IMG/VR virus record: IMGVR_UViG_3300023095_000122
Coordinates: 1 to 55,377 of that record
DNA length: 55,377 nt
DNA from: a virus
Lineage: Duplodnaviria > Caudoviricetes
Reading direction: 5' to 3' (one strand)
The notes beneath the pieces are model-generated. The model was not told the DNA's origin. It searched no databases and was given only the letters and a program-made list of their open reading frames with translations. The position numbers and the translations under genes were made by a program. Below are positions 20,736-21,040 of this stretch, piece by piece. Each line of letters starts with the position of its first letter. The first letter of the stretch is position 1.

Positions 20736-21040
20736 TAAACCGGGCTATTACACCCGGTTTTTATCACCCTCACGTGGCTTATTGCCCCTTGCAACGATTT
20801 CGCTCGTCCTGCTATCCCGGCACCTTCGTCCGGGCATCCTGCCATCTGTAATTGCCTGCCTTGCCACTGATCACTTCACCCTTGACGTGGTTAATCAGAA
20901 TCCAAGGACTTTGTCTTTAATGTCTGCCTTGCTTCTTTGTCCTGATGGGTAAGTTAACGCTACTGTAAAGTGCATTCCGCCAGTCAATGTATCACAAGGG
21001 CTTTACTATGCCTGCACTACGTGGATTCCCACTCGCAGGA
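20736..21040 (-). ncRNA. Candidate ~300-nt structured ncRNA
   Basis: ORF-free, GC-enriched, at least five hand-foldable stems, ends in hairpin AAACCGGG-TGTAATAG-CCCGGTTT. Confidence 0.5.

What the first reader, a model, noticed from the sequence alone, without database searches (positions are those of the whole stretch)
20736..21040. About 300-nt multi-stem RNA with internal repeats
Seen on the minus strand: CCTGC..GTGG-GAAT-CCAC..GCAGG; GTAAAG..CTTTAC; ATCAG-GAC..GTCC..CTGAT; CCCGG..CCGGG; and a terminal AAACCGGG/CCCGGTTT hairpin. CCCTTG inside the second stem is complementary to two downstream CAAGGG sites (possible pseudoknot or switch). Direct repeats CCACGT(C/G)A(A)GGGTGA (plus 20764 and 20876) and GCAAGGCAG (plus 20856 and 20924) also occur. 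Inference: a large phage ncRNA. Large ornate RNAs such as GOLLD and ROOL occur near phage tRNAs, but I cannot match this to a named family.
Basis: partly seen in the sequence, partly recalled or inferred. Interest (0 to 1): 0.7.

Follow-up and report, generated by a model that had tools for sequence, protein, structure and literature searches.

The report
Conserved phage RNA behind tRNA genes
This gap in a Pedobacter-type phage holds a real, conserved, folded non-coding RNA at the end of the phage's tRNA gene cluster; it matches no described RNA family and its function is unknown.

Summary
The 340-nt gap at 20709-21048 (minus strand) is non-coding. It holds a structured RNA that is conserved in 7 distinct phage, prophage or metagenome sequences.

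The conserved part has two pieces:
- A 5' hairpin, P1 (21011-21039).
- A core of about 120 nt (20733-20853): three helices (Pa, Pb, Pc), invariant joining sequences, a GTGAGGGTGA box and an intrinsic terminator.

Compensatory changes support P1, Pa, Pb and the terminator. G-U pairs place the RNA on the minus strand. The middle 155 nt consists of two optional hairpin modules that some relatives lack.

Folding energy of the single sequence is not above chance (z -1.37).

No Rfam family matches it, including GOLLD and ROOL. Five of the 7 loci carry called tRNA genes upstream on the same strand, and a sixth has a tRNA-like sequence. Two related prophages without tRNAs lack the RNA.

Best reading (about 0.5): a stand-alone small RNA that forms the last module of a phage tRNA operon, like T4 RNAC and RNAD. 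Main rival: a cis-acting terminator or antiterminator leader for the downstream late genes. Expression is untested.

The parts
21011..21039 (-). P1: outer stem CCTGC/GCAGG (21039-21035 with 21015-21011) enclosing inner stem GTGG/CCAC (21032-21029 with 21024-21021), with loop GAAT.
   Evidence: Present in 4 of the 7 members (WIN, L076, L075, L074). 97.1% of cells are paired; pairs 16-36 (CG/AU) and 19-30 (GC/AU/UA) change on both sides; 6 of 500 shuffles reach the score (A6). The run variant at 21013 gives U-A to U.G.
20922..21006 (-). Optional module A: runs from AAAGCCCTTG to GCAAGGCAG, with a possible closing helix CCTTG/CAAGG.
   Evidence: Present in WIN and L076, and its 3' half in L064. 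Absent from the short forms L075 and L074. WIN and L076 do not differ in the closing helix, so its pairing is untested.
20854..20913 (-). Optional module B: a hairpin domain from AAAGTCCTTG to GGCAAGGCAGGC, with inner stem CTGAT/ATCAG.
   Evidence: Three sequences (WIN, L076, L077): 90.7% of cells paired, 4 pairs changed on both sides, 29 of 500 shuffles reach that count. Suggestive only.
20816..20834 (-). Pa: CCCGG/CCGGG hairpin with a variable loop.
   Evidence: 4 of 5 pairs change on both sides across 8 rows. Examples: CCCAG/CTGGG in L075, CTGGG/TTCAG in L074, CCAG/CTGG in L079. L076 has one A.A mismatch.
20791..20812 (-). Pb: GC..GACGA / TCGTTGC with a 2-nt bulge and loop GCGAAA, preceded by the invariant GATAGCAGG.
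   Evidence: 100% of cells paired; 2 pairs compensatory (GTAGA/TCTAC in L074); one pair is G-C in 4 rows and G-U in 4 rows, which fits only the minus-strand RNA.
20776..20786 (-). Pc: GGC/GCC stem with a loop of 4-6 nt that varies in length and sequence, flanked by the conserved GCAAGRGG and AYGTGAG.
   Evidence: 100% paired, but with almost no variation (one G-C to U-G). It is 4 bp long in L079.
20764..20773 (-). GTGAGGGTGA box, 3-9 nt upstream of the terminator stem.
   Evidence: Only exact copy in the window. Conserved as GTGAG(G/A)nnGA in all 7 members and in L031. A related box (GTGAGGTAGA, 22931-22940) sits just upstream of the leader terminator.
20733..20760 (-). Intrinsic terminator: AAACCGGG-loop-CCCGGTTT followed by a T run.
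   Evidence: Terminator scan. 96.4% paired with 2 compensatory pairs (GCGGG/CCCGC in L079).
21044..21433 (-). Insertion that separates the element from the tRNA array in this phage: a tRNA 3' fragment (T-arm plus acceptor strand, 21396-21432) and ORF 21049-21363 (104 aa).
   Evidence: One contig of run X8 joins 21043 to 21434 with 6 other letters between (table 5 and record 23). The fragment is seen and gives only weak Rfam hits.
21683..22711 (-). Upstream tRNA genes on the same strand: Met, Trp, Met, Asn.
   Evidence: ARAGORN and Rfam.
22904..22997 (-). Conserved start of the unit: palindrome ATTACA..TGTAAT (22982-22997), a TTTGAA box (22957-22962), and a short leader ending in a terminator hairpin (22904-22929).
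   Evidence: Alignment A8 of 7 loci; terminator scan. Reading this as a promoter rests on the Bacteroidota -7 consensus TAnnTTTG, which is recalled and was not tested.
20460..20708 (-). Downstream gene o20460 (82 aa, no Pfam, PHROG or PDB relative). Its ATG lies 24 nt after the terminator's T run.
   Evidence: A homologue follows the RNA in 6 of the 7 members. Homologues without the RNA exist in L029/L073 and L031.

Best explanation
The gap encodes a conserved, structured, non-coding RNA specific to a small group of temperate phages of Pedobacter-like Bacteroidota. It is the last module of a non-coding transcription unit that sits between the head genes and the downstream small and large (presumed tail) genes.

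The unit runs in this order: a conserved promoter-like region with a palindrome, a short leader with a terminator, one to four tRNA genes, this RNA, and its own intrinsic terminator.

The RNA is modular. Its parts are a 5' hairpin (P1), zero to two optional hairpin modules, and a core of about 120 nt with helices Pa, Pb and Pc joined by near-invariant single strands.

I propose that it is transcribed with, or just behind, the tRNAs, ends at its terminator, and accumulates as a stable small RNA (about 165 nt in short forms, about 310 nt here). It would act away from its own transcript, on a partner that recognises the invariant joining sequences. This would make it the counterpart of the two small RNAs of unknown role in the T4 tRNA region.

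Shown: conservation, pairing kept by compensatory changes, strand, terminator, absence of a reading frame, linkage to tRNA genes, one copy per phage.

Inferred: transcription, ends, stability, action in trans.
For: 1. Homologues. nhmmer finds the 3' half in a Pedobacter prophage at E 3.2e-18. Pattern scans and a protein-anchored scan bring the total to 7 distinct sequences.
2. Covariation in the core. 94.3% of 175 cells are paired. 8 of 23 pairs change on both sides, against 3.0 +/- 1.2 in shuffles (0 of 500 reach it) and at most 4 when partners are slid. P1 is 97.1% paired, with 6 of 500 shuffles reaching the score.
3. Strand. One Pb pair is G-C in 4 rows and G-U in 4 rows.
4. Conservation. 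The core is more conserved than the adjacent ORF at the nucleotide level in 13 of 15 pairs, for example 85% against 54%.
5. No frame. Every sense frame has at least 1 stop in every member, and loop lengths differ by 1-2 nt.
6. Energy. MFE z-scores are -2.89 for the window core, -2.07 for the L075 short form and -2.04 for the L074 short form.
7. Linkage to tRNAs. 5 of 7 members have ARAGORN-called tRNA genes upstream on the same strand. L079 has a tRNA-like sequence seen by eye, and L064 is cut off. The two related prophages with the same flanking genes but no tRNA (L029/L073, L031) lack the core.
8. Independence from the downstream gene. In L079 the core precedes a different gene, a small membrane protein.
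9. Copy number and host. There is one copy in each of 5 of 5 related phage records and one in the window. No host copy was found in 151 Pedobacter genomes apart from the prophage in G429.
10. Precedent. [quoted passage not shown]
Against: There are no expression data of any kind, and the 5' end is unknown.

Terminator-like hairpins lie between the first tRNA and the RNA (22614-22594 in the window, with counterparts in L075 and L074). Co-transcription with the tRNAs therefore needs read-through or a separate promoter.

The terminator ends 24-35 nt before the next start codon, with no recognisable promoter between. This also fits a cis-acting leader.

There are only 7 sequences (8 rows with the weak L031 match). 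The core alignment was fitted to the model, which leans towards the structure. Pc and module A show almost no informative variation.

The full-length window sequence does not fold better than shuffles (z -1.37).
Confidence: 0.5

Rival explanations
1. It is a cis-acting transcription control element. The core and the GTGAGGGTGA box form a leader that decides whether RNA polymerase stops at the terminator at 20760-20737 or reads on into o20460 and the late genes behind it. The decision could come from binding a phage or host factor or a small ligand, or from making the polymerase terminator-resistant.
For: The terminator is the last element of the conserved core in all 7 members, and the next start codon follows within about 24-35 nt. 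I could not recognise a promoter in that stretch.

The same downstream gene family follows in 6 of 7 members.

A related box precedes a second terminator in the leader of the same unit, at 22931-22940 before 22929-22904 in the window. It recurs in 4 of 6 leaders read by eye.

Near-invariant single-stranded joints are typical of ligand- or protein-binding RNAs. That last point is established general knowledge, not a test.
Against: o20460 homologues exist without the core in L029/L073 and L031, and the core exists with another gene in L079.

No alternative pairing with the terminator strands is conserved. The best partner of the terminator strands is Pa in 5 of 7 sequences, but Pa covaries within itself and not with the terminator in L075, L074 and L079.

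The box is not enriched in the window as a whole: 44 matches at up to 2 mismatches against 29.8 +/- 5.9 expected, and 2 of 100 shuffles reach that number.
Confidence: 0.25
2. It is a processing element for the tRNA precursor: a self-cleaving ribozyme, or a structure that directs or blocks host RNases, which defines or protects the 3' end of the tRNA transcript.
For: It is always downstream of tRNA or tRNA-like genes. The spacing from the last tRNA to P1 is 70-74 nt in L075, L074 and L076. It has a compact multi-helix core with invariant joints. HDV-like theta ribozymes lie adjacent to phage tRNAs (PMC10879173, abstract in the search listing only).
Against: No match to any Rfam ribozyme model, even at E up to 10 in the window or up to 1 in six homologue loci. 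In the window, 390 nt of inserted DNA plus a 250-nt spacer separate it from the last tRNA, without loss of the element. No cleavage site can be named.
Confidence: 0.1
3. It has no function of its own. It is a spacer made of decayed tRNA genes or a decayed gene copy, plus an ordinary terminator.
For: The tRNA region holds decayed tRNA pieces (21396-21432 and about 22080-22096). A 21-nt stretch of the core's 5' flank resembles the start of o20460 (18 of 21 identical; 2 of 300 shuffles reach the score). The full-length MFE is not above chance. The middle modules come and go between relatives.
Against: Compensatory changes occur in four helices. The core is more conserved than the neighbouring coding sequence in 13 of 15 pairs. 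Blocks of up to 25 nt are invariant between phages whose flanking protein is about 50-60% identical.
Confidence: 0.05

Closest known systems
Phage T4 RNAC and RNAD (species 1 and 2 stable RNAs of the T4 tRNA region)
   Same: Small non-coding RNAs encoded in a phage tRNA gene region, with unknown function. Reported as late RNAs in T4 (PMC3014915 and PMC9697503, passages read).
   Different: The host phylum and the phage are unrelated. This RNA has its own terminator and lies between the head genes and the presumed tail genes of a temperate phage.
GOLLD and ROOL large ornate RNAs
   Same: Often located near tRNAs and in prophages (PMC5737381, ROOL motif section, passage read). Function unknown.
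   Different: Those RNAs average about 580 nt or more, with many multistem junctions and pseudoknots. This one has a core of about 120 nt plus a hairpin and optional modules. cmscan with Rfam 15 gives no match to either, even at E up to 10.
Lambda PR'-6S RNA-tR' with Q, and HK022 put RNA
   Same: A phage late-region unit in which a promoter-proximal short transcript ends at a terminator that must be overcome to reach late genes. put is a cis-acting structured RNA of two stem-loops.
   Different: No Q-like or put-like sequence or factor was identified. This RNA lies behind tRNA genes, and behind two earlier terminator-like hairpins that it could not act on. Nothing was tested.
HDV-like theta ribozymes next to phage tRNAs
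   Same: Structured RNA linked to tRNA genes of phages of Bacteroidota-rich habitats (PMC10879173, abstract in the search listing only).
   Different: Theta ribozymes directly adjoin the tRNA and have the HDV double-pseudoknot fold. Here the RNA is 70 nt or more from the tRNA, no HDV-family Rfam match appeared, and the helices are three simple hairpins.

Membership tests
Any Rfam 15 family (including GOLLD, ROOL, ribozymes, riboswitches, tmRNA, RNase P, SRP, 6S) | A covariance-model score at or above the family's gathering threshold. | tested here: not met
   Window at gathering threshold: only 4 tRNAs. Region 20600-21200 at E up to 10: 5 weak matches, the best at E 0.27, all far below gathering. 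Six homologue loci at E up to 1: tRNAs and one unrelated weak hit, nothing on the element.
tRNA / tmRNA | Cloverleaf or tRNA-like domain found by ARAGORN or the Rfam tRNA and tmRNA models inside the element. | tested here: not met
   ARAGORN finds 4 tRNAs, all outside the element. The only tmRNA-like hit is an 18-nt fragment at 21404-21421, E 0.25, also outside the element.
Intrinsic (factor-independent) terminator | G+C-rich hairpin directly followed by a T run on the transcribed strand. | tested here: met
   20760-20737 with 9 pairs, 5 of them G-C, then TTTATTT. The stem is kept by compensatory changes in homologues.
Small RNAs of phage tRNA regions (T4 RNAC/RNAD type) | Encoded within or at the end of a phage tRNA gene cluster, on the same strand. 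| tested here: met
   5 of 7 members have called tRNAs upstream on the same strand. One more has a tRNA-like sequence seen by eye. One contig is cut off.
Small RNAs of phage tRNA regions (T4 RNAC/RNAD type) | Accumulates as a discrete stable RNA during infection. | not testable with these tools
   No run listed as RNA holds the stretch. This says nothing either way.
Small RNAs of phage tRNA regions (T4 RNAC/RNAD type) | Sequence or structure similarity to RNAC or RNAD. | not tested
   No T4 sequence was fetched. The distant blastn of the element against 50,697 phage records, which should include T4-like phages, gave no match.
Riboswitch / transcription attenuator | Conserved, mutually exclusive terminator and antiterminator pairings. 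| tested here: not met
   The best upstream partners of the terminator strands fall in Pa in 5 of 7 sequences but do not covary with the terminator. In L076 and L079 they fall elsewhere (read).
Riboswitch / transcription attenuator | Constant association with one class of regulated gene. | tested here: inconclusive
   The same small gene follows in 6 of 7 members and a different gene in L079. The gene occurs without the RNA in 2 related prophages.
Protein-coding gene or pseudogene | An open frame, or a frame-preserving pattern of change, shared by the homologues. | tested here: not met
   1-9 stops in each sense frame of each member. Antisense frames are broken too, except one 45-codon frame in the 136-nt L079 piece. 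Loop indels of 1, 2, 3 and 5 nt.

The most novel reading that the evidence does not exclude
The core RNA and its GUGAGGGUGA box are the RNA part of a late-transcription switch of Bacteroidota phages. The same box sits before both the leader terminator and the element's terminator. A phage factor, or the RNA itself acting on the polymerase as put does, would suppress these terminators. Polymerases started at the palindrome-controlled promoter would then run through the tRNA genes into the downstream late genes. That would be the first antitermination system described for phages of this phylum, with a new RNA fold at its centre.
Probability: 0.15. Interest if true: 0.7.

Novelty: new member of a known kind. 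Interest (0 to 1): 0.5.

Why it matters
Phage tRNA clusters have been known since T4 to carry extra small RNAs whose roles are still unknown. GOLLD and ROOL show that prophage tRNA neighbourhoods are a source of unexplained structured RNAs.

This is a compact, covariation-supported new example from Bacteroidota phages. One member sits in a prophage of a Pedobacter isolate genome (handle G429), so expression, deletion and termination assays look feasible in principle.

Its modular build, a fixed core with add-on hairpin modules, and its place between terminators in the late region could shed light on one of two things: how these phages gate late transcription, or what tRNA-linked phage RNAs do. 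The family is rare (7 sequences found), which limits its reach.

Tried and rejected
**Searches that found no homologue**
- Distant blastn of the element against 50,697 phage records: no match.
- Protein-anchored scans of IMG/VR with each flanking ORF alone: no relatives.
- Loci around major-capsid relatives (17 viral and 6 genomic): nhmmer, blastn and later the covariance model found no homologue there. These phages share head genes but not the tRNA/RNA unit.
- A 20-mer from the Pa hairpin in IMG/VR: 0 hits.

**Searches that found few**
- 19-mer in metagenome contigs: 36 stretches. Reading the flanks, 3 are the element (L041 and L068 duplicate IMG/VR loci; L064 is new). The other 33 are chance matches in G+C-rich DNA.
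- Third IMG/VR pattern over Pc: only known members.
- Pattern with up to 2 mismatches in 401 genomes of the order: G429 (already known), plus one 2-mismatch hit in G036 that I did not examine.
- Covariance model in 151 Pedobacter genomes: G429 only.

**Sequencing runs**
- No RNA holder was listed.
- The four laid runs are DNA contigs. They served only for variants and one joint.

**Pairings considered and dropped**
- A long-range pairing of the P1 5' strand with CGTGAGG, proposed by RNAalifold on two sequences. L075 and L074 lack the partner, while the local P1 covaries.
- A closing helix AUUAC/GUGAU around the core, from the MFE fold. I found no conserved register in the other members by eye.
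- GGAAUCC of P1 pairing with GGAUNCC ahead of Pa (MFE folds). It is possible in WIN, L075 and L074 and weaker in L076. It stays open as an alternative fold.

**Resemblances dropped**
- Resemblances recalled from memory to RNase P conserved regions, SRP domain IV and group II domain V, because no Rfam model scores.
- A group I intron reading, prompted by the endonuclease ORF in L064. There are no exons, and the element is intergenic.

**Closed or unproductive tools**
- The search of earlier findings was not open.
- A PDB profile search for o20460 found nothing significant (best E 0.11).

Full report
**Setting**

The window is a 55-kb IMG/VR record classed as a provirus. Almost all genes lie on the minus strand. 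The main ones are:
- terminase at 34481-35785
- portal at 32996-34471
- major head protein at 26832-27917
- a repressor-like gene at 53979-54767 on the plus strand

Relatives of the head protein sit in Bacteroidota genomes: Pedobacter, Chitinophagaceae, Spirosomataceae and others.

The finding lies in a 340-nt gap between ORF 21049-21363 and ORF 20460-20708 (o20460, 82 aa), both on the minus strand. It is downstream of four minus-strand tRNA genes at 21683-22711.

**The observation**

The last hairpin is a textbook intrinsic terminator.

Taken alone, the sequence does not fold better than chance: z -1.37, and 10 of 100 shuffles fold as well. The opposite strand gives z -1.26. Rfam gives nothing at gathering scores, and nothing credible at E up to 10.

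**Finding relatives**

Several direct approaches failed:
- DNA search of deposited phages.
- Protein-anchored scans with either flanking ORF alone.
- Loci anchored on the head protein.

The last result showed that the tRNA/RNA unit is accessory and not part of the conserved head module.

Laying four public DNA runs on 19000-23000 showed close relatives:
- In runs X1 and X2 the element differs less than the ORF behind it. For X1 this is 6 letters and 1 gap in 359 nt, against 35 letters and 3 gaps in 290 nt.
- One X8 contig joins 21043 to 21434. So ORF 21049-21363, together with a tRNA 3' fragment at 21396-21432, is an insertion, and the element begins exactly at about 21043.

A search with o20460 in the large protein collection gave 5 homologues. 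Searching Pedobacter genomes gave three syntenic prophages. In one of them (L030) nhmmer found the 3' half of the element at E 3.2e-18.

A 19-mer shared by both sequences, a degenerate version of it, and an alignment-anchored scan then brought in more members. In all there are 7 distinct sequences:
- WIN and L076: long forms
- L077: medium form
- L064: 5' part replaced by the end of an endonuclease-like ORF
- L075 and L074: short forms
- L079: core only, in a different phage

Of the 36 metagenome hits, 33 were chance matches.

**Anatomy**

Short forms (about 165 nt) consist of these parts, in order:
- hairpin P1
- a short linker
- Pa
- GATAGCAGG
- Pb with a GCGAAA loop
- GCAAGRGG
- Pc
- AYGTGAGRGTGA
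- the terminator

The window and L076 carry about 155 extra nt between P1 and the core. These are two units, each running from AAAG(C/T)CCTTG to GCAAGGCAG. L077 has one such unit, and L064 has the 3' part of one.

The CCCTTG/CAAGG complementarity he noticed is best read as each module's closing helix. For module B, three sequences give 90.7% paired cells and 4 compensatory pairs in the inner stem. This is suggestive but weak.

**Is the structure real?**

On the model-fitted core alignment (8 rows, including the weak L031 match):
- 94.3% of cells pair.
- 8 of 23 pairs change on both sides, against 3.0 +/- 1.2 in shuffles (0 of 500 reach it) and at most 4 in the slid controls.

Pa, Pb and the terminator carry the compensatory changes. 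Pc never varies informatively.

P1 (4 sequences) is 97.1% paired and has two covarying pairs.

One Pb pair is G-C in four rows and G-U in four. On the other strand that would be C.A, so the RNA is read from the minus strand, like the genes.

Three runs carry C at 21005.

Other checks agree:
- No frame is conserved.
- The core is more conserved than the neighbouring ORF in 13 of 15 pairs.
- Short forms and the window core fold better than shuffles, z -2.0 to -2.9.

Cautions: the sequences are few, the alignment was fitted to the model, and some rows are close relatives.

**Context and mechanism**

Upstream of the tRNAs, 6 of the 7 aligned loci share four features:
- a palindrome (ATTAC..GGTAAT type)
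- a TTTGAA box; three loci read TATGTTTG, which fits the Bacteroidota -7 consensus as I recall it
- a leader of about 30 nt
- a terminator hairpin

L079 shares only the TTTGAA box.

The RNA co-occurs with tRNA genes. Five of 7 members have called tRNAs upstream. L079 has an uncalled tRNA-like sequence with a 7-bp acceptor stem and a T-arm, seen by eye. L064 is cut off. Two prophages with the same flanking genes but no tRNA lack the core.

There is one copy per phage record. No host copy turned up in 151 Pedobacter genomes.

In L079 the core precedes a different gene. Together these points favour a stand-alone RNA as the terminal module of a tRNA operon over a leader dedicated to o20460.

Three observations keep the cis-regulatory reading alive:
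- The terminator sits 24-35 nt from the next start codon.
- I could not recognise a promoter in between.
- A GTGAGG box also precedes the leader terminator.

I found no conserved antiterminator pairing. Terminator-like hairpins between the first tRNA and the RNA mean that either model needs read-through or an internal promoter.

**Comparison with known systems**

The closest precedent by setting is the pair RNAC and RNAD of the T4 tRNA region, whose roles are unknown (PMC3014915 and PMC9697503, passages read).

GOLLD and ROOL share the tRNA and prophage neighbourhood (PMC5737381, passage read). They are far larger, and no Rfam model matches here.

Theta ribozymes adjoin phage tRNAs (PMC10879173, abstract only) but have another fold.

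My literature searches were by keyword and cannot show that this motif is unpublished. The claim of novelty rests on Rfam 15 and on the phage DNA search. The supplements of the 224-motif paper were not available.

**Verdict**

This is a real, rare, phage-specific structured RNA of unknown function. It is a new family within a known kind: small RNAs of phage tRNA regions.

Noticed in passing
window 21044-21433 (minus): The segment holding a tRNA 3' fragment (T-arm plus acceptor strand, 21396-21432, resembling the 3' end of the tRNA-Asn at 21683-21756) and ORF 21049-21363 is absent from one contig of run X8, which joins 21043 to 21434 with 6 other letters. It looks like a gene cassette gained by recombination at a tRNA 3' end. 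The high summed depth at 21278-21545 in the runs probably comes from other organisms' tRNAs matching the fragment.
   Followed up: partly
window about 22080-22096 (minus); L076 about 2040-2075: A T-arm-like sequence (GCCGGTTCGAATCCGGC) followed by CTCTGTTCAC lies in the 375-nt spacer between tRNA-Trp and the second tRNA-Met. ARAGORN and Rfam do not call it a tRNA. A near-identical piece is in L076. It is a decayed or unusual tRNA conserved between two phages.
   Followed up: no
window 22904-22997 (minus); A8: A conserved start of the unit lies upstream of the tRNAs: a palindrome (ATTACA-TATG-TGTAAT here; 16-nt arms in L075 and L073), a TTTGAA box, a leader of about 30 nt and a terminator hairpin whose stem covaries (ACAAAGTC/GACTTTGT against GTAAAGC/GCTTTAC). 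It looks like an operator-controlled promoter with an attenuating leader.
   Followed up: partly
window 22931-22940 and 20764-20773 (minus): A GTGAGG(G/T)(T/A)GA box lies a few nt upstream of both terminators of the unit. It recurs at both places in most related loci, and also in L031, which has only the terminator. It is not enriched in the window overall.
   Followed up: partly
L064 1-365: In this metagenome contig an ORF with an HNH/AP2-type endonuclease look (judged by eye from its translated sequence, not scanned) ends inside what is module A in the window. It replaces P1 and the module's 5' part. This looks like a free-standing homing-endonuclease gene that invaded the RNA gene.
   Followed up: no
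L079 6750-6960 and 7120-7290: In L079 the core follows a roughly 93-nt tRNA-like sequence (7-bp acceptor stem, T-arm GCCAG-TTCGAAT-CTGGC, long middle part) that ARAGORN and Rfam do not call. It precedes a small two-helix membrane protein instead of o20460. A cysteine-rich HNH-like ORF lies upstream. WIN and L079 share GAGCAATCATTT in the spacer ahead of the element.
   Followed up: no
window 20685-20705 and 20833-20853: The first codons of o20460 (AATAACAGATTACAGGATGCC) resemble the 5' flank of Pa (AATTACAGATGGCAGGATGCC), with 18 of 21 identical. The ORF's last codons resemble the GCAAGGGGCAATAA stretch of the core. Two of 300 shuffles reach the alignment score. This may be chance or an old duplication.
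   Followed up: partly
window 20460-20708 (minus): o20460 belongs to a small family of 81-82-aa proteins (5 hits among 5.8 billion proteins; 5 of 235 Pedobacter genomes and 4 of 401 genomes of the family). It has no Pfam, PHROG or PDB relative. It has an invariant NGVI..L..A..IA..FD..E stretch.
   Followed up: partly
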